Below, one piece after another: positions 6,801 to 26,171 of a stretch of 34,708 bases of DNA (within the stretch, counting starts at the first letter, position 1; every line of letters begins with the position of its first letter). This DNA comes from Candidatus Iainarchaeum sp. (GTDB lineage Archaea > Iainarchaeota > Iainarchaeia > Iainarchaeales > JAAZKV01), in the NCBI GenBank assembly GCA_018691995.1, contig JABHJM010000046.1, positions 1-34,708 on the forward strand, given 5' to 3'. The notes under the pieces were generated by a model that was not told where the DNA came from, searched no databases, and saw only the letters and a list, made by a program, of their open reading frames with translations. The translations under genes and the position numbers were made by a program.

Positions 6801-9800
6801 ATTTCTTTGATTCATAGATTAATGAATTAAATTCAAGTGTTGAAGTGCTAATTTTGATACAATCATCATCAACATCTCCAAGTCTTCTAACTTGTACACT
6901 TACAGTATCAATTCTTTCTTCGGCCTCTTCACTATCTGCTACTTTTGCATTTATTTTAATATTGTAAGATCCAAGTGTGTATCCAGGTGTTACAGTAATT
7001 GTTTCATCGTCTCCTGCACTTATTTCAAATTCTTCTTCGCTAACATTTAATTTTGAATCAGGGTCAAGATCAATTTCCACATCAAGTGCACAATTGTTTT
7101 TAATTGTAAATGAATTTTCTTCATAAGCAGTACTTCCAGAACCTTGATTCATGAATGGAATAGATGATTGCATTCCATAAGGCATTCTTCCACGATTAAA
7201 TCCTTGATAACCTTGAGCGTAAGAACTCATATTACTATTAACGATTCGATTATATCCAAGGTTCCATCCTGCAATATCAAGTGTCATTCCCCCACTTGGT
7301 TCTTCAATTTCAATACATTCGCTTAAGTCACTCATAGTTAGATCAACATTAACTTTTGCACGAACTTTTTCTTCTTCTCCTTCTTCAGGAACATTTTTTC
7401 CTTCAACGCTAAGTGTTAATTTTTGTGTTCCAGAACTTGCACTAGATGTTGGAACAAAACGAAGAGTTAATTCTTCTTCTTCGTTACTTGCAAGGTATTC
7501 TGCTAGTTCAACAAATCCATCACTTAGTGAAATACTATTGAATCCACTTCCTGAAAGGAAAATGGTTCCAAATTTGCTTGATTCATTTATTTTAGCTTCA
7601 ACATTGTGTAGTGCAACGTCAATTCCTTCTGCTGCACAATTATTCTTAAGTGTAAGTGTTTCGCTCACTTCAGTTGTTGAAGTTGTAAATGTAACTTCGC
7701 CAGGAGTAATGCTCAAACAATTGTCGCTATCAAGGTATCCAGGCATTGATAGTCTGATTTTAATTGGAAGTTCTTGTTCAAACTCTTGTCCTGCACTAAC
7801 AACTTCTACATCAATTTCAACTTCTCCTTCAACTGTTTTTGGAGCAGCTAATTTTTTAGCAGTTTGATTTGGTTTTAATTTAATATTAAAATTAAGATCC
7901 GAATCAGCTGAAATAATTTCTCCAACAATATCATCAATTGTAATTTCTAAATAATCTGCAACTTCTCCTTCAACACTAATATCAGTTATTTTTAGTGATT
8001 CAACAGTTGCGTTTTCAATTAAAATCTTTTGAGTAATGCTTGCAACTTCTCCAATTTTAATTGTTTCATCAATTTCAGTTGGAACAAGTAATATAATTTT
8101 TTCATCTACATCTTTTTCAAATACAACTTCATCATATCCTTCTTTTTGTGCAGTGAATGTAATTACGTCTCCAGCACTTGGTGGTGAAAGATCATAAGTA
8201 GCCATTCCTTGACTGTTTGTTCTAAGTGTTTCTAAAATATCATTATCAGATTTAATTTCAATACTTACGTTGCTAAGTGGAGTGTTTCCATCATTTGCTT
8301 CAAAGAAAAGTGAATTTGTTACATATGGAATAATTTCTTTTGGAATAATGTCAAGTTTGAATGTTTTGTTTGCTTTTACATTAATTGCTATTGTCTCTTC
8401 AAGTTCAGTCTTAGTAGCAGAATTTACTAATAAGTTAATACTTCCGCTTCCACTCTGTGTAGTTGAAAAAGCAATGCTAACTTGGGTAAATGAATCTACG
8501 CTAAGTGTTCCAAGAATAATTTCGTCATCTTCATCATATTCTACTCCATTAACAGTAATTCCGTCAATTGTAATTCCACTTCCATCAATATCAAGTACGC
8601 TTGAGTTTAGTGCTTTTCCACTATAGTTAATTAAGTTAGCCATTAGTACATATGAAGTGTCTTGTTTTGCACTCATTTGATTAGTAATGTATTGTATTTT
8701 TCCAGTGTTGTTTCCTGAAATAGTTTGAACACTATAACTTTTACAAAATGTATCTCCGCAAAGATTAGCTGCTCCGCTTGAGAGTAAATAATTTTTTGCA
8801 CCAAGGTAAAGTTCATGTCCACCAATATTACTTTGTGGATCTTTTAGTAATGAGCTTCCTTTTGCCCAAGCTCTATACCATAAATCAATTCCAACATTTG
8901 GATTAATTTCAGTTACAGTAACATCAACTTCTACTTCATAAACTCCTTCTTTTGGATTTTTAAATATGCTTTCAATCCATTTAGCATTCCCATTTGTATA
9001 ATTTTGTGAATCAACATTATATCCGTCTGGAGGAGTATAAGTTGTCCCTTTTATAATTTTTTTAGCAGAAGTGTATACTTCTCCAATATATGCTGGGTCT
9101 TCTTCCATTAAATTAGTTGTATTATTGCTTGCATTTCCTGTTCGAACATGCACTCCAGCTTCTGAAAAACTTCCTTTTGGAACTTCAAGTAAAAGTTTAG
9201 CAGTGTATGTTCCTTGTGAAACTTCACGATCACTATTACTAACAACTGTGTCTCCAGAGTAAAGTCCAATCATTGTCAAACTCATTTTTCCAGAACTTGC
9301 AACTAAAACAATTTCTTTGTCAATTGTAGAACCTTCATCAGGATAAATAGAAGTTGTAAAATAATCCATGTGTCCACTTAGCTCTATTTCAAAGTAAACT
9401 TTTTTATCAGCTCGAATATCAAAAGTAGCAATTCCTTCTTCATTAGTTGAACTAACTCCTTCATCTGTTCCATCAAAATAATTTATTGCAGTAATGTTAA
9501 CTCCGCGTAAAGCTTCTCTTTGATTATTAATTACATTAAGTTTAATTGTTCCTTTTCCAATATCCATTGTGATTGGTAATTCATTTGCTTCTCTTGGAAG
9601 TAAAGTAATTCTAGTACTTGTTACTCCGTCAAATCCATCTTTGATTGCATAAGCATAGTAGCTTCCTATTTCAAGATTGTAAAAGAATGCTTTTCCATCC
9701 GCTCCAGTATTTTTTTCTCCAACAATAGTTCCGTCCATTGTTTTAAGAGTAATTCGCACATTATTTACTGGATCATTAGTTGGATCTTTTGTAATAACAG

Positions 9801-11144: not shown

Positions 11145-12554
11145 CTAAGGCTTACAATATTTTGGACTTGCACTACTAGTGCATCGTGCTGTTCCAGAAG
11201 CAGGAGCACTATAAAGTTCTGTTGTTATTCTAATTTTATAACGAATAGTTTTTCCTTTTACAATATAAAGTTCATTTCTTTCTTCAAATGCAACATCAGC
11301 TTCAACCCCTCTCATTTTTCCACAGTAAAGTTTTCCACTTGTTGTTCCTTCAATTATTTTTGTAGCACCACTTTCAACACTTGCAAGGATTGATTTGAAA
11401 GGACATTCATCAATTTTTACTATTCCATCAATATCAGGTTCAAGTCCATTAACTCCCCAAGTAAATTCTCCTGCATAATCAGGTCCATTAATATTAAAAA
11501 ATTCTAAATCATCAGTGTATTGTGCATCAAGTGCGATTGCTTTATCACAAATGGCTTGTTTTGCATGTGCGTTAAGACCAATATTTGCCACAGTTCCTCC
11601 TCCAGCATTATATTCAATTAGTCCTGCAGGACGTGATGAGAGAGTTTGCATTTCATTTTTACTAGGGCTTGCAGGACATTCGTGCCCATCCCACTTTCCG
11701 CCACCACCACCATTAGGGTTAGTTCTTGGAACACACCCTCCATCACAAAAACCAAGTTTTGCATCAACTAGACTACCATTTACATTTTTCATTGCCTCAG
11801 CATTCCTTCTTGCAACAAATATTGCTTTGAAAAAACGAAGAGGAATATAAATCTTAAGTCTTGTTTTTGGCAAGATTGGTAATTTTGTTTCTCCTTTTGT
11901 AATAAGATCTTTTACAACAATTTTTGGTAAGTCTTCATAAGTTTCATCTTTTACACAATCAAGTGGAATGTTAAAGTAAAATGTTCCAAGTTCACATTCT
12001 CCTGCGCCACAATCAACAACTTCTAAAAAATCATCGCCAGTAGTTGCTAAACAATCAATTGCTTCATTAAGTGCTTTTGCAGTATTTTCTCTTGCAGTTT
12101 GATCTTTACTGCTAAGAGAAACGTGATATCTTCCATAACTTCCTTCATTAAATTGAAGTACTGTTCTATTTGCAACAAATTCTATTACTGCATCAAAATC
12201 ATTTGCGCCCCCAGCGTCAGTTAAAAGTATTACTCTTTCAAAATCATTTACAATAGCATCCCAATCATTATAGTTAGTGGTCGTTAAAATATTAAAACCA
12301 GGATCATTATCAATTTCTCCATCGTCAAATGTTAGATAATCTTGCATACTTGAACGAAAATTATAATTAAAACTTTGAATAGCATCGCTTCTTGCAATAG
12401 CAGCTGCATCATTTAATTGAAAAGTGTTTAACATAAAGTAAAGTTGGTTTCCCATTTTGTCTTCTGTTGTTGTCATTGTACTAACAAGAACAACAGCGGT
12501 CATAATCATTATTGCTGCAACAAGTACAGTGAACATGTTGAATCCTTTTTGCAT
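11145..12554 (-). CDS. Large Cys-rich secreted protein with a class III (type IV pilin-like) signal peptide
   Basis: The N-terminus is MQKG|FNMFTVLVAAIMIMTAVVLVSTM: a short basic n-region, Lys-Gly at -2/-1, Phe at +1, then a long hydrophobic helix. This is the prepilin-peptidase (PibD/FlaK-type) substrate pattern. The rest is a ~440-aa globular part with many Cys (DCGAGECELG, FCDGGCVP, ECPASP, YCGKM, RCTSSASPKYCKP) and a GGGGG loop. Confidence 0.7.
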   Translation of the reverse strand: MQKGFNMFTVLVAAIMIMTAVVLVSTMTTTEDKMGNQLYFMLNTFQLNDAAAIARSDAIQSFNYNFRSSMQDYLTFDDGEIDNDPGFNILTTTNYNDWDAIVNDFERVILLTDAGGANDFDAVIEFVANRTVLQFNEGSYGRYHVSLSSKDQTARENTAKALNEAIDCLATTGDDFLEVVDCGAGECELGTFYFNIPLDCVKDETYEDLPKIVVKDLITKGETKLPILPKTRLKIYIPLRFFKAIFVARRNAEAMKNVNGSLVDAKLGFCDGGCVPRTNPNGGGGGKWDGHECPASPSKNEMQTLSSRPAGLIEYNAGGGTVANIGLNAHAKQAICDKAIALDAQYTDDLEFFNINGPDYAGEFTWGVNGLEPDIDGIVKIDECPFKSILASVESGATKIIEGTTSGKLYCGKMRGVEADVAFEERNELYIVKGKTIRYKIRITTELYSAPASGTARCTSSASPKYCKP

Positions 12555-12598: not shown

Positions 12599-15500
12599 TT
12601 ATCCACTTTCTGCGAATGGTTCCCAAGCACTAACTAGTCTGAAAAAGAATTCTGCTTTTTTTGGATCTGTGTTAAATATTTTTTTAGCAATTTCTTTTGT
12701 TAATGAAACATTAGCTTCGCCTTTTACTTCTTGGGTTAATTGAGTAATTTTGTTTTTCAAAAATGTTGATTTTCCAAGTAATTCCTTTTCTTTTTCACTT
12801 TCCTTATAGTCATCGCTAAGTACAACAATTAATGATCCGATCCAATGTTCTCTTGCATAAACAGCATTATCAATACTAATTCTTCGACTACTTTCCTTGT
12901 GTGAATAGGTATAGATTAACTCTTGTGTTGTTGGTGCTTGAACCATTTTTATAATATCTTCAATTTCATCAGAATCATCAAAGAAATCATTGTTTTGACT
13001 CAAAACATCGCGTAATTGACTTGGTTCAATATTTATTAGATATAATCTAAGTTTTCTTTCTTCAGGCATTTTACTATGTAAACTCTTATCCCAAACAAGC
13101 AGTGTTCCGTTTAGATTCTTTTCTTTTCCACTTAATGCTTTTATCATTTCTGCTTTTTCTTCATCAGTGTCAACCATATTATAACTTGGAATAATTCTTT
13201 CTTTTGAATCTTCTTCACTAAGAACCATTTTGTATGTTGCTCCTTTTAGTAAAGGGTCGTCTCCAAGAACAGTAATTTTTTTCTGAAGTTCTTCAGTTGA
13301 TTCTCTTGCACTTCGATTATAAGCATACATTCCAGCATAGTTTGAAACAACTCCACAAACAACTCCTCTTCCAAGTTCTTTCCAAAGTCGACTTGATTTA
13401 ATTAAATTTTTGAATTTAGTGCTTCCCTTTGTAGGTAATTTTACATCTGCTTCTTTTGCAGCTTTTGACATTTGTTTTGTTACTCCTTCATAAATATCAT
13501 CAATTGAACTATCAATACTTCTAATTGCTTCTCCTGCATTCCTTCTTGCTGCAATATTTGCACGAGAACGAATAGTTGATTTTAATTCAGAAACATCAAT
13601 TCTTGTTGCTGCATCTTTTGCTGCAGTATAATCAGCAGCACTACTAAATCTTCTACTAGCTTTTGCTGCATCGGCAAAGTCATCAGTTTTTACTTTGAAT
13701 TGTGAATAAATTTCTTTTCTTACTTCATCTTCCATTGTTGGACTTAATCCAGAAGTACTTAATACGTCGTCCACAACACTCTTTGCTTCACTAATACTCA
13801 TGTCTCCAGTTCCAGCTAGAGAAGGAGTAGCATCAATTTGTGCAGAAACCTTGTCTGAAATAATTTTTGCTGAATTAATTTGTTGTTGTGTAGTACTTCC
13901 AAGTGTATTAAATGCGACTTCGGGATCATCAAGGATTGTTGTCGCCCTAGTTTTAATTCCAGCAATATCGCTTATTGATTCTCCTTTTTCACTTCCAATT
14001 AAAAGTTCCATATTAGTTATTTTTGTACTGCTCTTTGAAGCACTACTATTTTCAAGTAATACTTTTTTGAGTTCAACATCATTAATTCCTTTTTGTATTG
14101 CTTTAGTTGCATCTTTTTCATTGACTACTCCAAAGTCTCTTAGTAATTTGAAATTCTTACGCTTTAATCCAGAAGAATAAGCATCTTTTCCACTTTTTGC
14201 AACTCCATCTTTAAATTTAGTAGCAACGTCACTTGCAACTTTTTCGATTGCATCATCACTTGCATTTGGGAAACTACTTCGTAGTTGAGTTATTAGTTTT
14301 CCTTTAACAATAGTGTCAGTTTCGCCGGCCAAGTAACTTGCCGTTCCAGCATTCCATCCCCAAAGTCTACTTCCAGCCCCATATAATCGTGCTACTCCTC
14401 CAGTACTTCCTCCAGCAACTAATGCAGGCGCATAACTTTTTGGCTCATAAGGTTTAGCTTGTGAAGTTTGAAATGGTATTCCAATGAATGGAATTTCACT
14501 AAGGAAAGCAAATGTTTTCTTAAATGCTGGATAATTGCTTGCAAAATCATCCTTAAACATAAATGCAGCTGGAATAACACAATCAGTAACAGGTGCAATC
14601 ACAGCTCCCCAACCAGTTGTTAGGTTACATGCAGCAGCTGTTGCACTACAAACTCCAAGGTAACTTGTAATTGCTTTTTTCTTTGCTTCTTTTTCATAAT
14701 TAAAAGTTGCTTTATTTGATTTAGTTCCTTCTTTTGTTATTTCGGCAACATCTTCTTCTCGTAATCCTGAATCTGCCATTCCTTTATAATATTCTTTCAA
14801 ACTTGGTATTGGATTAATGCTATTATTCCAACTTATAGTAAAATAATAAGGGTTCTTTTCTCCTTTTTTACTTATTTTATCCTTTTTCTGCATTAGTATT
14901 TCTACTAAATCATCAGGGTGAAGTGTTCCAGAATTAATTTTGATTAATCCATCAGCGTCCTCTGTTCCACGTGCTTCTCCAGCACTTTTGTTCATTGCAG
15001 TAACAACAAATGTTGCTCCATTAGCAGTAGTGTAAGTTGATTCTCCACTATCTTCGACTTTTTCAAGTGAAGGGTATGCACAAATTTTCAGATCTCGCAT
15101 GAATCGTTTGTCTTTACTATTCGCATTTCTTGTTAATTGTAATGGATATGATGTTGGTTTGGTCACATCTCCTCCTTCAAAAATTATTTCATAATAATAT
15201 TTTCTTGATTTTGAATCAACACTAGGATCTGTTTCTTCATCAGTTTTTGTTTCATCTTCACTAGTTTCTTCTGTAACCGTTTTGTTAGGATTTGTTACAT
15301 CTTCAATTGTAATTCTTTTTATTCCTTCAAAATCTTTAATTTCGTTATCTCGTCCAGCAATATCAAATGTTATTGATTCTGGAATAGGTGAACTAATATC
15401 TCCATAAACACATCCTCCTCCTTTAGCAAATAGCATTACTTTGTCTGGAATGTCAAGTTTAAGTCTTCCAACATCGCTTGCTTCACTTAGTCGTACACAG

Positions 15501-18500
15501 TTATGTCCTTCTCCGCTTTTCACAAGACAATTGTTTCCAAACGATCCACTCATTGCATCAGAAATCATTTTTGATAAACTCTTATGGAATGCTTCTTTTT
15601 CTGTATCGCTCATTCCGCTTACTTGTGAATTAACTTTTACTTCAATTGTTTTCTTTTCTCCACCAAGAATACACACTTCAGCCAAAGCATTTGTTAATGC
15701 TCCTTCACTTATTTTAATTTTGTTTCCTTGAGGGGTTGTTGTAACTCTAGTTTTATCTTTAAAGTGTCTTTCTGCAAGTCCTTCTCCAATTGATTTTAAG
15801 TTAGTTTCAGCATTAATTGTTGTAAGCCAAGTTCCCTTATTATCAGTTGCAGTAAATCCTTTGTCAATTGGAGTAAAGTTTGCTAAATTAACAATATCAT
15901 CAACACATTCAGGAGTAGTTAGTCCTCCTTGTTCTGCTAGATCCATTGCTCGAATAATAATTACTGGTGTTTGGAATGATAAAAAGTTTCCAGCTACAGG
16001 GAATGCCCCATCAATTCTAACTTTATAATATCCACAACCTTGCAAATCATTATCAATAAATACTGTTGGGATGGTGTAACCTGAAGCTGCTAAAAATTGT
16101 ATTGTTTCACTACTAACATCACTCACTTCAATTCGATAATCTCCTCCAGAGAGTCCTCCGCGTATTCCACTTGTTTGATTTGAAGTTAATTCACCAAGTG
16201 CTTCACGCAGTGCTCCAACGCTAACAACATCATTTTGTAAATATAATTCGAATGATTCTTGTTTCATTCCAACTTGTGCAAATGTACAGTAACCTTGTGT
16301 TTCACATCCAAATGTTTCCGATTGGCTTTGTTTTGAATAAGCATAAGATTCAGCTTTTCTTATTGCAGTGTCAAGTTTTTTTGCAATATATTCTGTAGCT
16401 TGCATAGCGTCACAATATCCATTAGAACAATCAGTGCTTGAGAGTTTTGGAACATCAATTGTAATTTCAGTATCCTCTCCGCCATCAACACATTCTTTTA
16501 CAGTGAGTCCTTTTGTTGCCTTACTATATTTGCCTGAATGATCTCCAGATGTAACATCAATGTTAATTGCTTCTGATTTAATTGGTGTTTGGCTAATATC
16601 AGTTATTCCTTGAATGAAAATAGGGTAACCCTTAAGGTTCATGTTTGGATTTATACTTCCAACACTAAGTTGAGTATGAACCATTGGTCCAGGAGGAACA
16701 ATTGTTGGTTGTACTCCAAGTAATAATCCTTGTGCTTGTGAAGTTGCACTAATAATTCTTACTGGTTCAGCACAATTGTTTTGTATAGAAATTTTTCTTG
16801 ATTTTGATAATCCTTCAATACTTAAATTAAATGTTGGATCATCAACAATATTTACTTTCAAACAATCAAATCCAGAATGATAAATTGTTGCATTTATTGT
16901 ACAAAGAGTTTCATTGTTACTTGTTGTATAATTTGTTACGCTTGGCCGATAGTTAGTTAGAGAATTGTATGTTCCACTTCCATTGTAGTAATTATTATAT
17001 TGTCCATATAAGTCTCTTTGTCCACTTCGATTGTTTAAGTTGCCCATTCTTCCAGTTACAACAACAGTTTGTTGAATTGGTTCGCTAAGTTTCGAATTTC
17101 CTTGTGCGAAGAGTACTTTTGTTGGAGTAATTGTTTGTCCAGCTTCAAGGTTCACTGCTCCAGAGGGTTCAACACTAAGTTTTGCTCCATTTGCCGTTCC
17201 TTGTATATTAAATCCAATATTTTGGATTGGAAACTGTGAGTTATTAGTAATGTAGAGTGGTTGTGCTGCTGTTGCTTTTTGTCCAACAGAGTTTTGTGTC
17301 ATCCAAAGTGTTACTTGTCCAGGGCATGATAATGCAAAGCTTGGATTGATTAAATTAACTTTAACATTAAGTCGTTTTGTTAAATAATTTGAATCATAAA
17401 TTACTTCAAAATTATAATTTTCGTTTAACCGCATTCCTCTTTCAACCAAGTTTTGTGCTCTTATTGTAATATTTTTTGTTTGTCCTGGTTGTAATGAAAT
17501 ATCATCAGAGTCAACGGCAATGTATGATCGGTTAGATTTTTCTTTTACTCTTTTTGTAAGCATTATTGCTTGGTCACAATTGTTTGTTGCCTCAACAACG
17601 TCAGAATCACTTGATCCAGCATTTCCAATTAAATTAATTGTTAAATTACTTGGTTCAAGTTTTAAACAATCAGAGTCAAGTTGTCTATTGTAAACAATAT
17701 TCATCATTGATGTTGCTTCAACTAAGAATTTTCCTTCAACGTAACCTTTAATTGTAATTTCAACAATTTCATCAATTGTTTCGCTACTTCCAACATATTC
17801 AATGTTAATTTGCACATTGTTCTTTTGTCCAGCGCCAAGAATAGGGGGAACCACAGCACTTATTTCAAAATTGTCTGTGTCGCCAATTTCATAAGAAATT
17901 TGGTTAATACTTAGTTCTGATAAATTTTCAAGTGGTTTTGTAACAATGTCTGTTTTTTGTCCAACCATCATTTTTACATTAATTTCTTCTTTAAAATCAA
18001 GAACCTTTGCTATACTTACAAGTAAAGTAGTAGTACTTGTACTAAACCGGGGGGCAGAAACTTCAACTGTGTAAAGGCCAGCATCTAAATTATTTTCAAT
18101 TCGATAACTTCCACCTCTTCCAGTTCCATCTTCTCCATTTCCACTAACACTCTTTACAACTTCTCCTTGTTTGTTTATAATTTTTACAAATGCATTTTCT
18201 ACTCCGCTAAGTCCTTCATCAAATACTTTCACAGTAAAGTTTTTTCCAAGTGTAACTAAAGTGTCACTAAGTTCAACAAGTAATTTCTTTTCAGTGACAA
18301 CTGTAAATGAAAGATCTTTTTGGATGTAAGCATTTCCTGATGCAATAAAATTAATATTTACTCCACCTGGTTGTTCACCAATAAAATAAAATCTTACTTT
18401 TTGCATAGAATCTTTTGTAACAGAAACTGCGATTGTTGATTCGCTTGTACCTTGTGTTAATAAATTTTCTACAAAGTTAAACGTTCCATTTTGTGTTCCA

Positions 18501-21001
18501 ATAAAAGATAAATTATTGTCAGTAGCAACACTTACTTGTAAGTAATCAGTTTCTTTTGCACTAAATTCTGCTTCAAGTGCATAAATTTTTCCTTGTAGTG
18601 CTTCAAAGCCAGCAGTGTCATAAAATACATCTTCAGCATCAACAAAGTTCATTGCAATACAAACATTGTCATTACATTCTGGTAGTGATTCGTATAAATT
18701 AAATTCTTCTGTTAGTGTACTAGCATATAATGCACTTTTAGTTTCACTATTCAATCCAGTTCCAAGATCCACATCTTCTGGAGTTCTATGATAATCATCT
18801 TGTAAGTTTGACCATGCACGATAATGGATTGGAATTTTCCCAGCAGTAAAATCGGCAACTCGGACTTTTACTTTTACAATATAAGTTCCTTTTGGATTAG
18901 AAATGGTTCCTTCAACCCATTTGCTTTCTTCTCCTTCGCTTGAAGTATTACTTCGATCAACTACTTCGTTTTCACTATAAGAGTATGAATAAACTTTTTC
19001 TGAATTACTCATGTCAAGTTCATAGAGAGCAATGTTTCCAGAATCTACAAAGTTAGTAGTATCATTCCCTACACGAAAGTGTACTCCGCCATTGTCTGCT
19101 GCAAGTGGAAATTTAACACTAAATCTTGCCCAAAAGAATGCTCCAGGAGTAAGTCCTTGTACATTATCTCCATTCTCATTTTCGATTCCTTCGTATTCAA
19201 TTGTTGGTGAAAGATCACTATCTTTGTTATACACAACAACTTCAATTACATCTCTTCCTTTTACATAAACATTTTCAGTAAAAGTATTTCCATCGCATAA
19301 ACTAATTGCTAGTTCAACAACTTCTTTATCTCTTGAGTTAAAAATTATTGTTGAATCAACAATGTTTCCGTCAAAGATAATTTCTCCACTAAGTTCACTA
19401 ATAACTCCTTTTCCACATATGCTTCCTCCAAGAGGGTCAATTAAATTTAGTTCAATAACATTTGGTTTTTTGCTCATTGCAATGTAAACTTTATTATCAA
19501 TTACAACATCTCCAATTTCAACAAGTTTATTTCCTTTGTGTGTTTTTGTTTCTGCCGTTATTTCATAAGTCTTATTTTTTTCTACAACAAAATTTGCATA
19601 TCCTGCAATACTTGTTTCAAGTTCATCAATTCCATATGGGAGTTTGTTTGCATCAGTTATTTCTTCTACTTTTATTTTTGCTCCAGAAATAGGTTTGCTA
19701 TACTTATCAAGAGTATAAAGATCAATTCTTGTTGAATTAACACTATTTATTTTTTCAAGAACAATACTTGCAATTTCTGTTGAACCAACACTAACCTTAA
19801 TTCTTCCTGGTAAGTGTTCATCATGTACTGCAGTAATATAAATATCGTCATTTGGATCCAGTCCACTAAATTCAACCCCATTTATTTTTGAAATCTTTCT
19901 CTCAATTTGATTTCCGTTTAAATAAAATAATTGAACAACTGCATTGTCAAGTCCAAGTCCCAAATCATTTAATACATTAACAAGTAAGCTTTCTCCACCT
20001 TTTGCAATTATAACGTCAATTTTTTCTTCAGCTCTTCGCAGGGTAAAACTAATGTCTTCTGAATCAGAATCATATGTGAGATATCCTTCTGCACTAGCAA
20101 CAATTCTAAGTGGGATTCCTGTTTGGATTTGTGTGGCAATTGCTCCTTGTTCAGTTACTCCATTTGTTATTTCAATTCCTGTTTGTTTGTTATATACAGA
20201 AATTGTTGCCCCGTCGATTGAAGTGGTGCCGTCACTTAGGGTAATTATTACATTTGCTTTTCCAACAAAACCATTTCCGGAAGGAGTAAGGGTTAGGTCT
20301 TCACGAACTCCTGCAATAAAAGTAATTGTTTGTTTTAATTCTGTGTACCCTTCGGCATTTACAGTAATTAGAATAGGAGTGTCTTCAGGTACTCCTCCAA
20401 TTCGAAAGATTCCATTTTGGTCAACGTTCATTGTCCATTCAAGGTCTTCCCAGTTAAGTGTTACTGTTGCATTTGTTACTTTTGAAGAAGTCTCAGAATC
20501 AGCCAGTCCTACAATTGCATTTATTCCAACAAAATCTTTTGTAAAAAGAAGTGCTCCTTTTGCATCACTTTCTCCGACCAAAATTTCTTCTTCTGCATCA
20601 TGATAACCTGTTTTTGATGCTTGTAATAATAATTTTGTTCCTGGGGCTTGTGGAACAAGTTGTATTACTTGTCCATCTCCAACAGTTTTATTTGTAATTA
20701 ACATTTCTCCATTTTGTGATTGTACTGAAAGTGAAACTCCATTCAAACTTTTTCCACCAGTGTCACGAAGAGTTAGTGTAAGTTCATCAACAGTTGTAAT
20801 TGGACTTACAAAAACCAAACTTAAAAGTAAGAGTAACATTACAACAATTGCGATTGTTACAATGAATGATGGGATTCCTTTTTCTTCAAAAAAATCTGAG
20901 TAAGTATAAACAGGGATTCCCTTATGGTCAAGTGCATCAAGAACAGTAAAATATTTGTCTTCAAGATGTGTATAAAAATTTGCTAATTTTTCACTTATCA
21001 A
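12599..21001 (-). CDS. Giant membrane-anchored surface protein, paralogue C (2800 aa, TTG start), with a ~740-aa C-terminal extension relative to paralogue B
   Basis: Uninterrupted 8.4-kb ORF. The start is TTG at 21001..20999, directly preceded by an in-frame TGA and a GTGAT box 4 nt upstream. The TTG start is supported by alignment of MISEKLANFYTHLEDKYF...GIPSF plus TM (IVTIAIVVMLLLLLSLVFV) with the N-termini of paralogues A and B. CarboxypepD_reg-like repeats are present (TLTLRDTGGKSLNGVSLSVQ, ANVIITLSDGTTSIDGATISV, LLVNVLNDLGLGLDNAVVQL, FTVKVFDEGLSGVENAFVKI). Family motifs are VHFRVGNDT, SKWVEG, IHYRAWSN, ALYAST. The body ends at FTISWNNS, which aligns by eye with QTINWNEAE at the C-terminus of B. 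Confidence 0.9.
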   Translation of the reverse strand: MISEKLANFYTHLEDKYFTVLDALDHKGIPVYTYSDFFEEKGIPSFIVTIAIVVMLLLLLSLVFVSPITTVDELTLTLRDTGGKSLNGVSLSVQSQNGEMLITNKTVGDGQVIQLVPQAPGTKLLLQASKTGYHDAEEEILVGESDAKGALLFTKDFVGINAIVGLADSETSSKVTNATVTLNWEDLEWTMNVDQNGIFRIGGVPEDTPILITVNAEGYTELKQTITFIAGVREDLTLTPSGNGFVGKANVIITLSDGTTSIDGATISVYNKQTGIEITNGVTEQGAIATQIQTGIPLRIVASAEGYLTYDSDSEDISFTLRRAEEKIDVIIAKGGESLLVNVLNDLGLGLDNAVVQLFYLNGNQIERKISKINGVEFSGLDPNDDIYITAVHDEHLPGRIKVSVGSTEIASIVLEKINSVNSTRIDLYTLDKYSKPISGAKIKVEEITDANKLPYGIDELETSIAGYANFVVEKNKTYEITAETKTHKGNKLVEIGDVVIDNKVYIAMSKKPNVIELNLIDPLGGSICGKGVISELSGEIIFDGNIVDSTIIFNSRDKEVVELAISLCDGNTFTENVYVKGRDVIEVVVYNKDSDLSPTIEYEGIENENGDNVQGLTPGAFFWARFSVKFPLAADNGGVHFRVGNDTTNFVDSGNIALYELDMSNSEKVYSYSYSENEVVDRSNTSSEGEESKWVEGTISNPKGTYIVKVKVRVADFTAGKIPIHYRAWSNLQDDYHRTPEDVDLGTGLNSETKSALYASTLTEEFNLYESLPECNDNVCIAMNFVDAEDVFYDTAGFEALQGKIYALEAEFSAKETDYLQVSVATDNNLSFIGTQNGTFNFVENLLTQGTSESTIAVSVTKDSMQKVRFYFIGEQPGGVNINFIASGNAYIQKDLSFTVVTEKKLLVELSDTLVTLGKNFTVKVFDEGLSGVENAFVKIINKQGEVVKSVSGNGEDGTGRGGSYRIENNLDAGLYTVEVSAPRFSTSTTTLLVSIAKVLDFKEEINVKMMVGQKTDIVTKPLENLSELSINQISYEIGDTDNFEISAVVPPILGAGQKNNVQINIEYVGSSETIDEIVEITIKGYVEGKFLVEATSMMNIVYNRQLDSDCLKLEPSNLTINLIGNAGSSDSDVVEATNNCDQAIMLTKRVKEKSNRSYIAVDSDDISLQPGQTKNITIRAQNLVERGMRLNENYNFEVIYDSNYLTKRLNVKVNLINPSFALSCPGQVTLWMTQNSVGQKATAAQPLYITNNSQFPIQNIGFNIQGTANGAKLSVEPSGAVNLEAGQTITPTKVLFAQGNSKLSEPIQQTVVVTGRMGNLNNRSGQRDLYGQYNNYYNGSGTYNSLTNYRPSVTNYTTSNNETLCTINATIYHSGFDCLKVNIVDDPTFNLSIEGLSKSRKISIQNNCAEPVRIISATSQAQGLLLGVQPTIVPPGPMVHTQLSVGSINPNMNLKGYPIFIQGITDISQTPIKSEAINIDVTSGDHSGKYSKATKGLTVKECVDGGEDTEITIDVPKLSSTDCSNGYCDAMQATEYIAKKLDTAIRKAESYAYSKQSQSETFGCETQGYCTFAQVGMKQESFELYLQNDVVSVGALREALGELTSNQTSGIRGGLSGGDYRIEVSDVSSETIQFLAASGYTIPTVFIDNDLQGCGYYKVRIDGAFPVAGNFLSFQTPVIIIRAMDLAEQGGLTTPECVDDIVNLANFTPIDKGFTATDNKGTWLTTINAETNLKSIGEGLAERHFKDKTRVTTTPQGNKIKISEGALTNALAEVCILGGEKKTIEVKVNSQVSGMSDTEKEAFHKSLSKMISDAMSGSFGNNCLVKSGEGHNCVRLSEASDVGRLKLDIPDKVMLFAKGGGCVYGDISSPIPESITFDIAGRDNEIKDFEGIKRITIEDVTNPNKTVTEETSEDETKTDEETDPSVDSKSRKYYYEIIFEGGDVTKPTSYPLQLTRNANSKDKRFMRDLKICAYPSLEKVEDSGESTYTTANGATFVVTAMNKSAGEARGTEDADGLIKINSGTLHPDDLVEILMQKKDKISKKGEKNPYYFTISWNNSINPIPSLKEYYKGMADSGLREEDVAEITKEGTKSNKATFNYEKEAKKKAITSYLGVCSATAAACNLTTGWGAVIAPVTDCVIPAAFMFKDDFASNYPAFKKTFAFLSEIPFIGIPFQTSQAKPYEPKSYAPALVAGGSTGGVARLYGAGSRLWGWNAGTASYLAGETDTIVKGKLITQLRSSFPNASDDAIEKVASDVATKFKDGVAKSGKDAYSSGLKRKNFKLLRDFGVVNEKDATKAIQKGINDVELKKVLLENSSASKSSTKITNMELLIGSEKGESISDIAGIKTRATTILDDPEVAFNTLGSTTQQQINSAKIISDKVSAQIDATPSLAGTGDMSISEAKSVVDDVLSTSGLSPTMEDEVRKEIYSQFKVKTDDFADAAKASRRFSSAADYTAAKDAATRIDVSELKSTIRSRANIAARRNAGEAIRSIDSSIDDIYEGVTKQMSKAAKEADVKLPTKGSTKFKNLIKSSRLWKELGRGVVCGVVSNYAGMYAYNRSARESTEELQKKITVLGDDPLLKGATYKMVLSEEDSKERIIPSYNMVDTDEEKAEMIKALSGKEKNLNGTLLVWDKSLHSKMPEERKLRLYLINIEPSQLRDVLSQNNDFFDDSDEIEDIIKMVQAPTTQELIYTYSHKESSRRISIDNAVYAREHWIGSLIVVLSDDYKESEKEKELLGKSTFLKNKITQLTQEVKGEANVSLTKEIAKKIFNTDPKKAEFFFRLVSAWEPFAESG

Positions 21002-21098: not shown

Positions 21099-21743
21099 TC
21101 ATTTCCTAGCCCAAATGAACCACAATACATACACAACGATTATGTATACAAATAAAACTAGTCTAAACAAGGTATCGTGCGCAATTTCAAACACTGCTTC
21201 ATTTTGACTCATAATGATGTTTAGTGTAACAAAAATTCTAAGGAGATTAAATACATAACCAAGTATTACTGCAACAATTGCCCCAATGACTTTTTTTCGC
21301 CACCCTATTCCAAATGAAGCAAGTATTGCACTTACAAGAATAATAATTTCAAGTGCTCCGCTACAAAGCCAAGAAATAAAGATAGTTTGAGAAGTTTGAT
21401 TAATTTCAAATGAATAAGCTGTTTCAAAGTTTTCAAGTTCTACATTTCCATTACTCACTGTTTCTATTCCTTGTGCACTAAGTAGGCCTTGTGCACTTCT
21501 TCCAGTACTCTCTTGAATAGAAGTTGAAAAGGGTATAGTAATTCCACTAAGTATTAAATAAAATATTAAAAATCCTAAAACAAACCAAACAAATTGTTTC
21601 TTTTGATCTTTCACAATTTTCTTTTCTTGTTCAACAAAATAATTTTTTATCTTATTAGTAGTTTCACAAAACATACATTTTTCGTTTTCTTTACAAAATA
21701 AAATTGGCTTTCCTTTTTTAGGGGTAGATTTCTTTTTTACCAT
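21099..21743 (-). CDS. Minimal exosortase/archaeosortase-family protein (putative Cys transpeptidase)
   Basis: 214 aa. The C-terminal ~100 aa show the family-defining order of catalytic residues within TM helices: ISWLCSGALEIIILVSAILA (Cys in a CSG motif), about 40 aa, NLLRIFVTL (NxxR), about 20 aa, AHDTLFRLVLF (His). The N-terminus is basic with a Cys cluster (CKENEKCMFC), followed by one TM helix and a ~60-aa loop. Confidence 0.65.
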   Translation of the reverse strand: MVKKKSTPKKGKPILFCKENEKCMFCETTNKIKNYFVEQEKKIVKDQKKQFVWFVLGFLIFYLILSGITIPFSTSIQESTGRSAQGLLSAQGIETVSNGNVELENFETAYSFEINQTSQTIFISWLCSGALEIIILVSAILASFGIGWRKKVIGAIVAVILGYVFNLLRIFVTLNIIMSQNEAVFEIAHDTLFRLVLFVYIIVVYVLWFIWARK

Positions 21744-22744: not shown

Positions 22745-25051
22745 ATGAAGATTGGTGGAATGCAAGTTGGAGAGTATGTTGTAAAAAGTGTTGGTGGAAA
22801 GAGAGCACTTATTTTTGATTGTAAACATTGTCCATATAGGGCAAGCATTGCAGAAGATCATCATTGTCGTTTTCACGTTTTAAAAATTTTAGGACAACTT
22901 GAAGCAGATACAGTTGTTTTTGCAGAAGTATATGAGAGAGTATATGCAGAAGCACAAACAAAAATGCTAATGGAAGTAGCAAACCTTGCACAAAAGTTTG
23001 TTGTTCAAAGTATTTGGAGTTATAATCATTTAGGACGACCAAAAAAAGAATGCGAACCTTTCTTTCCAGAAAGACACAGAATAATGGTAAAAATTGCACG
23101 GGACCTAATTACATTCGATCCACTCTTAGCGTACCTAACTCTAATGGAGGAACTTAAGAAACAAGAAGTAAAAGTAAAACAAGGAAGTGCTGAATATATT
23201 GATTGTGCAGAACCCTATGTTGCAACTCTTGTTCAAATGAAAAATTCATTTGATATTTTAACACTTACAATAAAAGCAAGAAAATTATTAACAGAATTAA
23301 CCGAAATTCCAAATACAAAAGTAATGTACAAATCAATTTTTGAAGCAGAAATAAAACCTTCATTTATTGGATCAAAATTATCTTTTGAGGGGATGGAAAA
23401 TTTAGAATTAATGGATGAATATAATGTTCGTGAATCAACAGTACAAGTTTTTTCAGATCCAGATAGGGTAGAAAAAATTTATCAAATTAATCCACCTGAA
23501 TATTCACTAGCGCCAGACCAATATTTTATTCTTAGTAAAACTCGTGAAATAGTTGCATCGTATCGTCCAGGAAAAACATCACTTAGTACAGTTGCAACTT
23601 CAAGAAAATATTTTGAACGTTTATATGAAGCAACAATAAAAGAAGTTGCACAATTTCATAAAGTAAGATTAAGTCCGGGGGAAATGTCTTCACTAAGTAA
23701 AGTAGTAGCTCGTTACACAGTAGGTTATGGTATCCTTGAAGTACTTCTTAATGATAGACGTGTAACAGACATTTATCTTGATGCTCCAATTGGAGGAAAA
23801 CCAATTTATGTTGTGCATAGTGATTATGGGCAATGTCAAACAAATGTTACATTCACTGAAAACGAATCAAATTCATTAATTTCAAAACTTCGTGCAATGA
23901 GTGCTCGTCCATTTGATGAAGCACACCCAGTGCTTGATTTTGATTTACAAGATCTTGAAACACGTGTTGCAGTAATTGGGCCACCCCTCTCACCAAGCGG
24001 AGCAGCTTATGCATTTCGTTTACACAAATTAACTCCATGGACACTTGAACAATTTATTGATGTAGATTATCTAAACCCATTAGCGGCCGGAATGATTTCG
24101 TTCTTTATTGATATGCAAAGTACAACTTTAATAGCAGGTTCACGTGGTAGTGGAAAAACATCTTTACTTGGAGCAACTATTCAAGAAATTCCACAAAATT
24201 CTCGTATAATAATTCAAGAAGACACAATGGAACTTCCAGTTGATTATTTGAAAAATATTGGTTTTAATATTCAAAGACTCAAAACAAAAAGTGCAATTAG
24301 TGTAAGTAAAACAGAAACTGAGGTAGCACCAGAAGAAGCACTAAGAACATCACTACGTCTTGGTGACTCTGCACTAATTTTAGGAGAAGTAAGAAGTACT
24401 GAAGCAAAAGTACTTTATGAAGCAATGAGAGTAGGTGCAGCAGGAAATGTTGTAATGGGAACAATCCACGCAGATAGTGCTTATAGTGTATGGGACAGAG
24501 TTGTAAATGATCTTGGAGTTCCAACAACTTCGTTTAAAGCAACTGATATTGTAATAGTTGCTCGTCCAATTCGTTTCAAGGGGTCACTTACAAGACACCG
24601 TAGAGTTGTAGAAATAACAGAGGTAAAAAAGCATTGGGATAAGGATCCAGAAAGAGAAGGTGGCCTATTAAAGTTAATGTCTTATGAAGCAAAGACTGAT
24701 AATTTAGAATTACAAGAAGACAATTTAAAAGAAAGTGATTTGTTAAAAAAGATTCAAAAAACTTCAGGGTTAAGTGTTAATGATATTTGGTCAGAAATAA
24801 GACTTCGTGGAAATGCAAAACTATTTTTAGTAGAACAAAAAAGTGAACTTGATCTTCCAGAACTTTTAGAAGCAATTAACACTTCTAGTGGAAATAATAA
24901 ATTACTTTTAATGAAAGAAAAAATGATTGAAGAAGAAGGTAGTGTTAATTATGATCAACTTTTAGGCCAGTGGAAAAACTGGGTAACAACAAAACTTATT
25001 CCTCGAGTAAAAAGAGCTAGTGTAGCTAATAAGAAGAAAAAGAAAGAATGA
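22745..25051 (+). CDS. Type II/IV secretion-system ATPase family protein (archaeal FlaI/PilB/GspE/VirB11-like), unusually long
   Basis: 768 aa. Motifs seen: Walker A GSRGSGKTS (24137-24163), Asp box IIIQEDTMELP, Walker B-like LILGEVRSTEA, His box MGTIHAD. Upstream lies the N2-type domain VTDIYLDAPIGGKPIYVVHSDYG...VAVIGPPLSPSGAAYAFR. An extra ~330-aa N-terminal region carries a CKHCPY...HHCRFH cluster. A ~130-aa C-terminal extension ends in KKKKKE. A GTGAG SD-like box lies 4 nt upstream of the ATG. Confidence 0.85.
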   Translation: MKIGGMQVGEYVVKSVGGKRALIFDCKHCPYRASIAEDHHCRFHVLKILGQLEADTVVFAEVYERVYAEAQTKMLMEVANLAQKFVVQSIWSYNHLGRPKKECEPFFPERHRIMVKIARDLITFDPLLAYLTLMEELKKQEVKVKQGSAEYIDCAEPYVATLVQMKNSFDILTLTIKARKLLTELTEIPNTKVMYKSIFEAEIKPSFIGSKLSFEGMENLELMDEYNVRESTVQVFSDPDRVEKIYQINPPEYSLAPDQYFILSKTREIVASYRPGKTSLSTVATSRKYFERLYEATIKEVAQFHKVRLSPGEMSSLSKVVARYTVGYGILEVLLNDRRVTDIYLDAPIGGKPIYVVHSDYGQCQTNVTFTENESNSLISKLRAMSARPFDEAHPVLDFDLQDLETRVAVIGPPLSPSGAAYAFRLHKLTPWTLEQFIDVDYLNPLAAGMISFFIDMQSTTLIAGSRGSGKTSLLGATIQEIPQNSRIIIQEDTMELPVDYLKNIGFNIQRLKTKSAISVSKTETEVAPEEALRTSLRLGDSALILGEVRSTEAKVLYEAMRVGAAGNVVMGTIHADSAYSVWDRVVNDLGVPTTSFKATDIVIVARPIRFKGSLTRHRRVVEITEVKKHWDKDPEREGGLLKLMSYEAKTDNLELQEDNLKESDLLKKIQKTSGLSVNDIWSEIRLRGNAKLFLVEQKSELDLPELLEAINTSSGNNKLLLMKEKMIEEEGSVNYDQLLGQWKNWVTTKLIPRVKRASVANKKKKKE

Positions 25052-26076: not shown

Positions 26077-26171
26077 ATTTTATTAGCGGTTGTCAAACTT
26101 TAATAAACTTTCTTGTAGCATTCGTGTGTTTTAAGCGTAGTTATTACATGATTTATTTCCAGTGTCATTTC

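What the first reader, a model, noticed from the sequence alone, without database searches (positions are those of the whole stretch)
20792..21001. Conserved N-terminal 'EDKW' head plus V/I-P-S/T-F plus TM signature shared by all three giant proteins (also at 10834-11028 and 2202-2399); it fits no standard signal-peptide class
Alignment by eye:
- A: DKVKDIYFSAEEKWYEALDKID...VPSFALFIIIIIILLLL
- B: DAIKDAYFSLEDKWFALTEKIP...VPTFPAFIALIILIIVV
- C: EKLANFYTHLEDKYFTVLDALD...IPSFIVTIAIVVMLLLL

The consensus is Y-F/T-x-x-E-E/D-K-W/Y-F/Y at residues ~10-20, a variable 20-30-aa spacer, V/I-P-S/T-F, then a ~22-residue hydrophobic helix.

The ~45-residue acidic/aromatic head before the helix argues against several known classes:
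- Sec signal peptide (no short basic n-region and no A-x-A site).
- Tat signal (no RR).
- Lipobox (no Cys).
- Class III signal (no K/R-G-F).

It looks like an N-in signal anchor with a dedicated cytoplasmic handle. Conservation of this short head is much higher than in the adjacent ectodomain sequence, which suggests it is recognised by something: a targeting factor, the ATPase, the sortase-like protein or a cytoskeletal partner.
Basis: seen in the sequence. Interest (0 to 1): 0.7.

Follow-up and report, generated by a model that had tools for sequence, protein, structure and literature searches.

The report
Conserved N-terminal head on archaeal giants
The three giant surface proteins in this window start with the same unannotated ~46-residue acidic domain and a membrane anchor, and this module marks about a thousand protein clusters of giant proteins in tiny DPANN archaea, nearly always beside a pilus-type ATPase and a sortase-like enzyme.

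Summary
All three giants (A, B, C) begin with a 42-46-residue acidic head. It is followed by [IV]P[ST]F and the only membrane-grade hydrophobic segment in each protein. A head-only profile searched against 1.84 billion representative proteins found 984 proteins (463 at E<=1e-10). In the best 150, every match sits at the N-terminus. Proteins that are not obvious fragments are 1,500-3,600 aa long.

- In 155 of 155 cases an unmodelled hydrophobic segment follows the head.
- 23 of 91 long members have ectodomains with no detectable similarity to A, B or C, yet keep the head.
- Pfam, NCBIfam, PDB sequences and Foldseek give no match.
- Sec, Tat, lipobox and class III signal features are not met.

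The head-bearing giants lie in a conserved DPANN gene cluster. Its order is a FlaI/TadA-like ATPase, an exosortase-family protein with intact Cys/Arg/His, giant(s), a pilin-like protein and small membrane proteins. Some relatives also carry a TadC-like platform gene and about seven small pilin genes.

Best reading: an N-in signal anchor whose cytoplasmic helical-hairpin head docks the giants to a cytoplasmic part of this pilus-type machine. The binding partner is inferred, not shown.

The parts
20864..21001 (-). Head of giant C (residues 1-46, MISEKLANFYTHLEDKYFTVLDALDHKGIPVYTYSDFFEEKGIPSF)
   Evidence: Translation. Independent family profile gives 73.2 bits. AF2 predicts helices 2-26 and 31-40 with pLDDT about 80.
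20801..20863 (-). Signal-anchor TM of giant C (residues 47-67)
   Evidence: KD19 3.28, the only TM-grade segment in 2800 aa. AF2 predicts helix 45-64.
12599..21001 (-). Giant C, 2800 aa, single-pass, CarboxypepD_reg/Ig-like ectodomain
   Evidence: ORF. Pfam PF13620. C-type orthologues of 2.7-3.1 kaa in other genomes.
10903..11028 (-). Head of giant B (residues 1-42, divergent: lacks the G-IPVY-K block)
   Evidence: Translation. Independent profile gives 32.3 bits, E 2e-10.
10840..10902 (-). Signal-anchor TM of giant B (residues 43-63)
   Evidence: KD19 3.21, the only TM-grade segment.
3832..11028 (-). Giant B, 2398 aa
   Evidence: ORF. Pfam Ig-like and MG domains. B-type orthologues in L006, L008, L015, L017, L019, L020, L022-L026.
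2265..2399 (-). Head of giant A (residues 1-45)
   Evidence: Translation. Independent profile gives 62.0 bits.
2199..2264 (-). Signal-anchor TM of giant A (residues 46-67)
   Evidence: KD19 3.48.
1..2399 (-). Giant A, N-terminal 799 aa (gene runs off the window)
   Evidence: The A-type orthologue in L026 is 2986 aa.
11145..12554 (-). 469-aa pilin-like protein between giants C and B. Its N-terminus MQKGF|NMFTVLVAAIMIM resembles a class III signal.
   Evidence: Sequence. Orthologues sit in the same position in 10 or more loci.
3208..3705 (-). 165-aa multi-TM protein between giants B and A
   Evidence: Homologues in the same position in L019, L020 and L026. A 201-aa multi-TM protein sits in this position in L006 (no phmmer match to the 165-aa protein).
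21099..21743 (-). 214-aa exosortase/archaeosortase-family protein directly upstream of giant C
   Evidence: TIGR04178 at 42.8 bits (cut-off 23) and PF09721. Cys127/Asn166/Arg169/His189 are invariant in five cluster orthologues. It lies upstream of the first head-bearing giant (directly, or separated only by one or two small genes) in the window, L024, L025, L026, L028 and L030/L031.
22745..25051 (+). 768-aa FlaI/TadA-like secretion ATPase with a ~290-aa N-terminal extension, divergently transcribed
   Evidence: PF00437 at 67.8 bits; the FlaI model aligns to residues 294-711 only. Orthologues are next to head-bearing giants in L025, L026, L028, L030 and L031.

Best explanation
The head plus the hydrophobic segment is an uncleaved N-in/C-out signal anchor. 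Its ~46-residue acidic N-terminal domain is a helix-turn-helix with this consensus: M-G-x-x-[DE]-x-L-K-x-x-Y-x-x-L-E-D-K-[YW]-[YF]-x-x-L-D-x-L-[DE]-x-K-G-[ILV]-P-V-Y-K-V-V-D-x-I-[ED]-x-x-x-[IV]-P-S-F. This domain stays in the cytoplasm. There it acts as a docking module that ties each giant Ig-repeat surface protein to a conserved cytoplasmic component of the type-IV-filament-like machine encoded beside it. The most likely partner is the extended N-terminal domain of the FlaI/TadA-like ATPase, or the TadC-like platform protein.

Shown:
- The head is a discrete module, strictly N-terminal and found only on giants.
- It is always followed by one TM segment.
- It is much more conserved than the TM or the ectodomain.
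- It co-occurs with the ATPase / exosortase-like / pilin-like cluster.

Inferred:
- Cytoplasmic location, from the single TM and the extracellular-type domains.
- That the anchor is not cleaved, from the ~28-residue uncharged stretch.
- Docking as the function, and the identity of the partner.
For: 1. Family size and position. The head-only profile (50 positions, TM excluded) found 984 proteins at E<=1e-3 and 463 at E<=1e-10 among 1.84 billion representatives. All of the best 150 match at the N-terminus. Lengths are either short fragments or 1.5-3.6 kaa.
2. In 155 of 155 cases a KD19>=2.14 segment starts within -4 to +3 residues of the head's end. The uncharged stretch has a median of 28 aa.
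3. Residue-specific conservation: Y11 98%, E15 98%, D23 100%, P31 97%, Y33 98%, D37 93%, P45 98%. The TM shows only 23-28% pairwise identity, against 53-65% for the head.
4. 23 of 91 long members have ectodomains with no phmmer similarity to A, B or C but keep heads scoring 70-80 bits.
5. Conserved synteny of ATPase, Xrt-like protein, giant(s) and pilin-like protein is seen in the window, L024-L026, L028 and L030/L031. This includes clusters with a single giant of an unrelated ectodomain class, which also carry a TadC-like platform gene and 7 small pilin genes.
6. In all 31 loci the head occurs only on the giants.
7. AF2 gives a confident helical hairpin before the TM helix.
8. The ATPase orthologues share a conserved ~290-aa N-terminal extension that the FlaI model does not cover.
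Against: - No interaction was computed or measured.
- The positive-inside signal is weak: 1.4 K/R in the 15 aa before the TM against 0.85 after it, and the head has a net charge of -3.
- One head-bearing giant (P0121, L029) has no ATPase or Xrt-like gene in the 2.3 kb of upstream sequence available. L024 shows the Xrt-like gene but no ATPase within 10 kb.
- The conservation comparison uses sequences selected by head score, which inflates head identity.
- Small residues often follow the hydrophobic segment, so cleavage by signal peptidase cannot be excluded.
- Only the best 150 of the 984 hits could be inspected.
Confidence: 0.42

Rival explanations
1. The head is a targeting or translocation-control extension of a long signal sequence for very large exported proteins. 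It would be the archaeal functional analogue of the bacterial ESPR, YSIRK or KxYKxGKxW extensions. It would tune SRP/Sec engagement or hold the N-terminus at the membrane while thousands of residues are threaded out. It would need no dedicated partner in the gene cluster, and the anchor might be cleaved afterwards.
For: The head is found only on proteins of about 1.5-3.6 kaa, and only at the extreme N-terminus directly before the hydrophobic segment. Small residues (G/A/S/P) commonly lie between the hydrophobic segment and the first Ig strand (sequences). The bacterial precedents also sit on giant surface proteins (own knowledge).
Against: There is no sequence relationship to ESPR, YSIRK or KxYKxGKxW at E<=10. 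The uncharged stretch has a median of 28 aa and a minimum of 20, longer than cleaved h-regions. The tight linkage to one particular gene cluster is not expected for a general export signal. The head keeps type-specific signatures (A, B and C types) across genomes.
Confidence: 0.2
2. The [IV]PSF motif plus the TM is a sorting signal read by the adjacent exosortase-family enzyme. This would be an N-terminal counterpart of the PEP-, PGF- and PEF-CTERM signals. The enzyme would cleave or transfer the giant at its anchor.
For: An exosortase-family gene with intact Cys/Arg/His lies upstream of the first head-bearing giant (directly, or separated only by one or two small genes), on the same strand, in 6 of the 7 distinct clusters where that region is visible. 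The giants have no C-terminal hydrophobic signal (0 of 77). A proline-containing motif abutting a TM is the usual format of exosortase signals. The PEF-CTERM model touches giant B residues 39-58, but only at E=5.
Against: With the ectodomain outside, the PSF motif lies at the cytoplasmic face. By the positive-inside rule, read by eye from the sequence and the alignment, the enzyme's Cys, Arg and His lie at the outer face. There is no basic cluster after the TM (0.85 K/R in 15 aa). The TM itself is poorly conserved. The outer-face segment has no conserved motif. Some clusters contain conventional candidates with a C-terminal TM plus a basic tail (L024 528 aa, L028, L009, L014). The E=5 hit is not significant.
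Confidence: 0.12
3. The heads bind each other. The two or three paralogous giants of one cluster would assemble through their cytoplasmic heads and TM helices into a hetero-oligomeric stalk. The conservation would then reflect self-assembly, not an external partner.
For: Clusters usually carry two or three head-bearing giants in a fixed order (C, B, A), each with a type-specific head signature conserved across genomes. The N-terminal ~770 aa of A, B and C are colinear paralogues.
Against: Clusters with a single head-bearing giant exist and keep an equally conserved head (L028, L030/L031). Residues invariant across all types point to a common partner or fold. The amphipathicity of helix 1 is not significant.
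Confidence: 0.15

Closest known systems
ESPR (extended signal peptide region, Pfam PF13018) of type V-secreted giants, and the YSIRK-G/S and KxYKxGKxW signal-peptide motifs of Gram-positive giant surface proteins
   Same: A conserved block of residues at the extreme N-terminus, directly before the hydrophobic export segment, found on very large surface proteins or adhesins.
   Different: No sequence similarity. Those are bacterial, about 10-25 residues long, basic, and part of cleaved Sec signal peptides. The head here is archaeal, about 46 residues, acidic (net charge -3), predicted to fold as a helical hairpin, and followed by a ~28-residue anchor-length segment.
Cytoplasmic N-terminal peptides of single-pass type IV pilus / type II secretion components that dock to cytoplasmic partners (PilN N-terminus binding PilM; GspL binding the GspE ATPase)
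   Same: Short conserved cytoplasmic N-terminus, then one TM, then an outside domain, encoded in a type-IV-filament gene cluster with a PilB/GspE-family ATPase. This is the working model proposed here.
   Different: No homology. No PilM-like gene was seen. The outside part here is a 1.5-3.6 kaa Ig-repeat protein, not a small alignment-complex domain. The interaction is not shown.
Exosortase/archaeosortase sorting signals (PEP-CTERM, PGF-CTERM, PEF-CTERM)
   Same: A proline-containing short motif abutting a TM helix, carried by several paralogues next to an exosortase-family gene.
   Different: Those signals are C-terminal, end in a basic tail, and put the motif at the outer face. Here the module is N-terminal, has no basic tail, and the motif is at the inner face.
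Archaeal type IV filament loci with large adhesin-like Ig-fold proteins (Makarova et al. 2016, PMC4858521; archaeal TFF census preprint 10.64898/2026.04.22.720090, 'system 2'), and Omnitrophota giant genes next to T2SS/T4P-like clusters (10.1101/2023.11.21.568195)
   Same: Giant or large Ig-rich surface proteins encoded beside an ATPase, a platform protein and class III signal pilins. The ATPase has an extended N-terminus and the platform is a single gene.
   Different: None of these papers describes a conserved N-terminal head on the large proteins, or an exosortase-family gene as a fixed cluster member. The cluster seen here is in DPANN lineages (Iainarchaeum, Micrarchaeota, unclassified archaeon MAGs).

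Membership tests
Sec (class I) signal peptide | Short, positively charged n-region | tested here: not met
   The segment before the hydrophobic stretch is 42-46 aa and acidic (mean 4.9 K/R against 8.0 D/E, net charge -3.1) in 142 members.
Sec (class I) signal peptide | h-region of about 7-15 hydrophobic residues | tested here: not met
   The uncharged stretch after PSF has a median of 28 aa and a minimum of 20.
Sec (class I) signal peptide | Signal peptidase I site (small residues at -3 and -1) that is actually cleaved | not testable with these tools
   Small residues often follow the TM (sequences). No SignalP/DeepTMHMM run or proteomics was available.
Tat signal | Twin-arginine motif in the n-region | tested here: not met
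   RR in the first 55 aa: 0 of 159.
Lipoprotein signal | Lipobox with an invariant Cys at the end of the h-region | tested here: not met
   Lipobox-like pattern in 1 of 159. Any Cys in aa 40-95 in 15 of 140.
Class III (prepilin/archaellin) signal | [KR]-[GA] cleavage dipeptide immediately before the hydrophobic helix, with a short leader | tested here: not met
   [KR][GA] at the relevant columns in 55 of 159, G/A at -1 in 84 of 159, a FlaFind-like core in 1 of 159, and a leader of about 42 aa. By contrast, the neighbouring 469-aa protein does start MQKGF|NMFTVLV.
ESPR / YSIRK / KxYKxGKxW N-terminal motifs | Match to the family profile | tested here: not met
   No Pfam or NCBIfam hit on the heads at E<=10. 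For 16 N-termini the only hits lie in the Ig region from residue 70 onward.
Exosortase/archaeosortase sorting signal | C-terminal position: motif, TM, basic tail, end of protein | tested here: not met
   The module is N-terminal. 0 of 77 long members have a hydrophobic 17-mer in the last 45 aa. K/R after the TM averages 0.85 per 15 aa. TIGR03024 hits only at E=5.
Exosortase/archaeosortase sorting signal | Cognate exosortase-family gene adjacent to the signal-bearing paralogues | tested here: met
   An Xrt-like gene lies upstream of the first head-bearing giant (directly, or separated only by one or two small genes) in the window, L024, L025, L026, L028 and L030/L031. It is not seen in L029, a short contig.
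Exosortase/archaeosortase family (the 214-aa neighbour) | Profile match above cut-off, with conserved Cys/Arg/His | tested here: met
   TIGR04178 at 42.8 bits against a cut-off of 23; PF09721 at 28.2 against 25.7. C127, N166, R169 and H189 are invariant in 5 orthologues.
Type IV filament (TFF) system (the surrounding cluster) | PilB/FlaI-family ATPase, TadC/PilC-like platform, class III signal pilins, prepilin peptidase | tested here: inconclusive
   The ATPase is met (PF00437 at 67.8 bits). A pilin-like protein is present. A platform candidate is seen only in relatives, at a weak T2SSF E-value of 5e-4, below the cut-off, and is not in this window. No prepilin peptidase was seen in the regions held.
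PilN/GspL-type docking anchors | Demonstrated binding of the cytoplasmic N-terminus to PilM or to the ATPase | not testable with these tools
   Multimer prediction with paired alignments and binding assays were not available.

The most novel reading that the evidence does not exclude
The head is the entry ticket to a previously unrecognised archaeal assembly route. In this route a type-IV-filament ATPase/platform, together with an exosortase-family transpeptidase, engages non-pilin substrates through a cytoplasmic N-terminal domain. The machine would then mount or release 1.5-3.6 kaa adhesin- or enzyme-bearing giants on the surface of DPANN cells, plausibly as their host-contact apparatus. One variant of this reading is that the exosortase-family enzyme processes an N-terminally anchored substrate, which would be the first such case.
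Probability: 0.2. Interest if true: 0.85.

Novelty: new variant of a known kind. Interest (0 to 1): 0.62.

Why it matters
DPANN archaea are ultrasmall, mostly host-dependent cells, and their attachment machinery is largely unknown. This work defines a compact sequence signature that finds their giant surface proteins even when the ectodomains have diverged beyond recognition; public records currently label those proteins only as 'carboxypeptidase regulatory-like domain' or 'hypothetical'. It also ties those proteins to one conserved gene cluster with an ATPase, an exosortase-family enzyme and pilin-like proteins.

This gives three things: a family model that could be added to domain databases, a concrete set of candidate partners to test, and a defined target (a 46-residue head) for pull-downs, structure prediction and proteomics in the few cultivated DPANN co-cultures.

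Tried and rejected
- Pfam and NCBIfam scans of the three heads at E<=10 and of 16 N-termini found nothing on the head.
- A profile search of PDB sequences and a Foldseek search of the AF2 model against PDB found nothing meaningful.
- Word-indexed homologue searches were insensitive. The three-head profile found 2 fragments. The 800-aa N-terminal profile found 2 relatives. A seven-head profile found 17 fragments. Only the exhaustive HMM search revealed the family's size.
It was rerun with 8 closer heads, so it samples only members with [IV]PVYKVVD.
- A class III signal was considered because of K-G-[IV]-P in giants B and C, and rejected on family statistics.
- The idea that helix 1 is an in-plane amphipathic membrane helix was not supported. 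Its hydrophobic moment of 0.31-0.48 was reached by 5-35% of shuffles.
- The secretion system of Makarova et al. 2015 (arCOG01314/arCOG02884) was checked and is a different system.
- Papers on archaeal TFF systems, DPANN dark matter, Micrarchaeota evolution, Micrarchaeota and Nanobdella surfaces, and giant genes do not mention this head.
- Multimer prediction of the head with the ATPase was not attempted, because the structure tool takes single window proteins only.

Full report
**What is in the window**

On the minus strand lie three very large genes:
- Giant C, 12599-21001, 2800 aa, TTG start.
- Giant B, 3832-11028, 2398 aa.
- Giant A, N-terminus at 2399, running off the window with at least 799 aa.

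Other genes surround them:
- A 469-aa protein lies between C and B. Its N-terminus (MQKGF|NMFTVLVAAIMIM) looks like a class III pilin signal.
- A 165-aa multi-TM protein lies between B and A.
- A 214-aa exosortase/archaeosortase-family protein lies directly upstream of C. It scores 42.8 bits against TIGR04178.
- A 768-aa FlaI/TadA-like ATPase is transcribed divergently from this gene. Its catalytic part aligns to FlaI only from residue 294 onward.

The window is a contig of NCBI metagenome-assembled genome GCA_018664565.1.

**Checking the observation**

Each giant starts with a 42-46-residue acidic segment, then [IV]P[ST]F. The protein's only membrane-grade hydrophobic segment follows, with Kyte-Doolittle hydropathy averaged over 19 residues (KD19) of 3.2-3.5. 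Nothing elsewhere in the giants exceeds 1.42.

A, B and C are colinear paralogues over their first ~770-800 residues at 21-26% identity. Within the heads the identity is 30-43%. A second conserved block lies near residues 690-775.

I built a profile from 121 heads of other genomes, none more than 60% identical to a window head. It scores C at 73.2 bits, A at 62.0 and B at 32.3, and hits none of the other 73 window ORFs.

**Is it conserved beyond the three paralogues?**

Word-indexed searches were insensitive. They did yield two Diapherotrites homologues (P0004, P0005) whose heads are visibly much closer to giant A than their ectodomains are. A third search yielded 17 metagenomic N-terminal fragments.

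I then made a head-only alignment. It has 18 sequences and 50 profile positions, and ends three residues after PSF, so the TM is not modelled. I searched it exhaustively against 1.84 billion representative proteins:
- 984 proteins at E<=1e-3 and 463 at E<=1e-10.
- In the 150 listed, the match starts at residues 1-11 in nearly all and never later than residue 63.
- Lengths are either short (contig fragments) or 1,500-3,600 aa.

- All 155 with enough sequence have a strongly hydrophobic 19-mer (KD>=2.14) starting within -4 to +3 residues of the head's end. This is an independent confirmation of the architecture.
- Column statistics give the signature: Y11 98%, E15 98%, D16 84%, K17 78%, [YW]18, [YF]19, L22 82%, D23 100%, G29 88%, P31 97%, V32 83%, Y33 98%, D37 93%, [ED]40 99%, P45 98%, S46 81%, F47 83%.

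Among the three, only window giant B has lost it.

**Head versus ectodomain**

I took the 91 head-bearing proteins of >=600 aa, removed the head and TM, and compared the rest with the window giants. 33 resemble B, 29 resemble C and 6 resemble A. 23 show no detectable similarity to any of the three, yet their heads still score 70-80 bits.

Within the B-type and C-type orthologue sets, the head is the most conserved 47-residue window in the first 800 residues. Mean pairwise identity is 0.53 and 0.65, against at most 0.46 and 0.50 elsewhere. The TM is among the least conserved parts, at 0.23-0.28. One caveat applies: these sets were chosen by head score, which favours the head.

**What it is not**

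- Pfam, NCBIfam, PDB sequences and Foldseek give nothing for the head.
- Across 159 members: RR 0, lipobox 1, a FlaFind-like class III core 1, and [KR][GA] before the hydrophobic segment in only 55.
- The pre-TM segment is acidic (net charge -3.1). The uncharged stretch has a median of 28 residues, which is anchor length rather than signal-peptide length.
- No long member has a C-terminal hydrophobic signal (0 of 77).
- Sources name these proteins only 'carboxypeptidase regulatory-like domain-containing' or 'hypothetical'.

**Structure**

AlphaFold2 on giant C residues 1-115, with a 16-sequence alignment, predicts helix 2-26, helix 31-40 and the TM helix 45-64. pLDDT is about 80 over the head. 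The start of an Ig-like domain follows at lower confidence. Helix 1 is only moderately amphipathic, no more so than shuffled sequences.

**Genomic context**

A genome scan returned 16 loci, titled Candidatus Iainarchaeum, Candidatus Micrarchaeota or unclassified archaeon. Exact-protein look-ups added more.

The heads occur only on the giants, usually two or three in tandem. The order is conserved: giant C, pilin-like protein (320-620 aa), giant B, small multi-TM protein, giant A.

Where the region upstream of the first giant is visible, an exosortase-family gene precedes it on the same strand, either directly or separated only by one or two small genes. This holds for six clusters: the window, L024, L025, L026, L028 and L030/L031. 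The orthologous ATPase lies divergently just beyond it in five of these; L024 is the exception. The short contig L029 shows neither gene.

L028 and L030/L031 carry a single giant of an unrelated ectodomain class. They also show the other arm of the cluster: the ATPase, a 679-690-aa TadC-like protein (weak T2SSF hit, E 5e-4) and about seven small pilins with class III signals.

The five Xrt-like proteins keep Cys127, Asn166, Arg169 and His189. The enzyme is therefore probably active.

**Mechanism**

- Shown: a discrete N-terminal module found only on giants, followed by one TM, under much stronger constraint than its surroundings, and genomically coupled to a type-IV-filament-like cluster.
- Inferred with good support: N-in/C-out topology. 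There is a single TM, and the ectodomains are Ig-like, macroglobulin-like and CarboxypepD_reg domains with many sequons and cysteines.
- Inferred with moderate support: the segment is a retained anchor, because of its length.
- Best explanation (confidence about 0.42): the cytoplasmic head docks each giant to a conserved cytoplasmic element of the machine. The most likely element is the ATPase's extended N-domain or the platform protein. This would work the way PilN's N-terminus binds PilM, or GspL binds GspE.

Rival explanations:
- An ESPR/YSIRK-like export-control extension (0.20).
- Self-assembly of the paralogous heads (0.15).
- An N-terminal sorting signal for the exosortase-family enzyme (0.12). 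This is attractive because of the adjacent gene and the proline-motif-plus-TM format. It is disfavoured because the motif would face the cytoplasm while the enzyme's catalytic residues face outward. In addition, no basic tail follows the TM, and some clusters hold conventional C-terminally anchored candidate substrates.

**Comparison with the literature**

Several sources describe large adhesin-like proteins or giant genes beside ATPase/platform/pilin clusters:
- Surveys of archaeal type IV pilus systems (PMC4858521).
- The archaeal TFF census preprint (10.64898/2026.04.22.720090).
- Work on archaeal dark matter (PMC6393860).
- The Omnitrophota giant-gene study (10.1101/2023.11.21.568195).

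None mentions a conserved N-terminal head or a fixed exosortase-family member. Papers on Micrarchaeota evolution and on Micrarchaeota and Nanobdella cell surfaces do not cover it either.

**Verdict**

This is a real, widespread and unannotated domain-plus-anchor signature of DPANN giant surface proteins, embedded in a conserved pilus-type gene cluster. The kind of thing is known from bacteria: a conserved N-terminal module ahead of the export or anchor segment of giant surface proteins, or a cytoplasmic docking peptide on a single-pass component of a type IV filament system. This family, its archaeal setting and its fixed association with an exosortase-family gene are new. Interest 0.62.

**Limits**
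- Only the best 150 of the 984 hits could be inspected.
- The binding partner and the cleavage state are untested.
- The genome scan sampled only members with the [IV]PVYKVVD block.

Noticed in passing
window 11145-12554 (-): The 469-aa protein between giants C and B starts MQKGF|NMFTVLVAAIMIM, a class III (prepilin-like) signal. It ends in a conserved Cys-x-Pro tail (…SPKYCKP). Orthologues of 320-620 aa occupy the same position in 10 or more loci. It is far larger than ordinary pilins.
   Followed up: partly
window 21099-21743 (-): The exosortase-family protein has intact Cys/Arg/His, but no protein in the 34.7-kb window has a conventional C-terminal motif-TM-basic-tail signal. Its substrate is unknown. 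The window copy has a Lys-rich N-terminal tail with a Cys cluster (CKENEKCMFC) that several orthologues lack.
   Followed up: partly
window 12599-14500 (-), giant C residues ~2160-2800: The C-terminal ~640 residues of giant C differ in composition from the ectodomain: 14.7% K+R, 1 Cys and 5 sequons, against 8.9% K+R, 22 Cys and 25 sequons in residues 71-2090. A weakly hydrophobic patch near residue 2127 precedes this region. A C-type orthologue (L025 8565-16760) carries a lytic transglycosylase (SLT) Pfam hit.
   Followed up: partly
window giants A/B/C, residues ~690-775 (e.g. B: window ~8700-8960): A second conserved block is shared by the three paralogues (KW.E.I.NPK.G.Y…YRAW…LYAST). It is the next best conserved stretch after the head and has no Pfam match.
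   Followed up: no
window 21782-22669 and 2541-3202: Small toxin-antitoxin-like genes sit inside the cluster. ParE-like (82 aa), an AbrB/SpoVT-like 106-aa ORF and a HicB-like 87-aa ORF lie between the Xrt-like gene and the ATPase. Two plus-strand ORFs (98 and 122 aa) lie between giants B and A. L025 has a HEPN/nucleotidyltransferase pair at the equivalent place.
   Followed up: no
window 25411-34700: Downstream of the ATPase lies a run of large ORFs with no or few domain hits. They include a 1292-aa protein with methyltransferase hits and proteins of 361, 670 and 403+ aa. This looks like a surface-modification island rather than the TadC-like platform and pilin arm seen beside the ATPase in L028 and L030.
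   Followed up: no
L006 10001-14023 and 14020-17652; L020 10001-12286: The A-type giant is split in some genomes. P0004 (1340 aa) is followed by a 1210-aa ORF that overlaps it by 4 nt in another frame. L020 has a 761-aa version. In L026 the orthologue is one 2986-aa ORF. This may be frameshift, pseudogenisation or assembly error.
   Followed up: no
L006 17700-24023; L030 16366-24573; L031 11104-19311: Downstream of the giants, Iainarchaeum and Micrarchaeota-type loci share a run of 5-8 small multi-TM proteins (about 80-190 aa). After these come a ~180-aa minus-strand gene, a ~500-aa gene and a family B DNA polymerase. This points to one orthologous chromosomal locus across lineages.
   Followed up: no
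cluster 3 (P0160, P0163): Fragments >=90% identical to an archaeal C-type giant are deposited under a 'Candidatus Izemoplasmatales bacterium' MAG on contigs of about 3 kb. This is most likely a binning error, not bacterial occurrence of the head.
   Followed up: no
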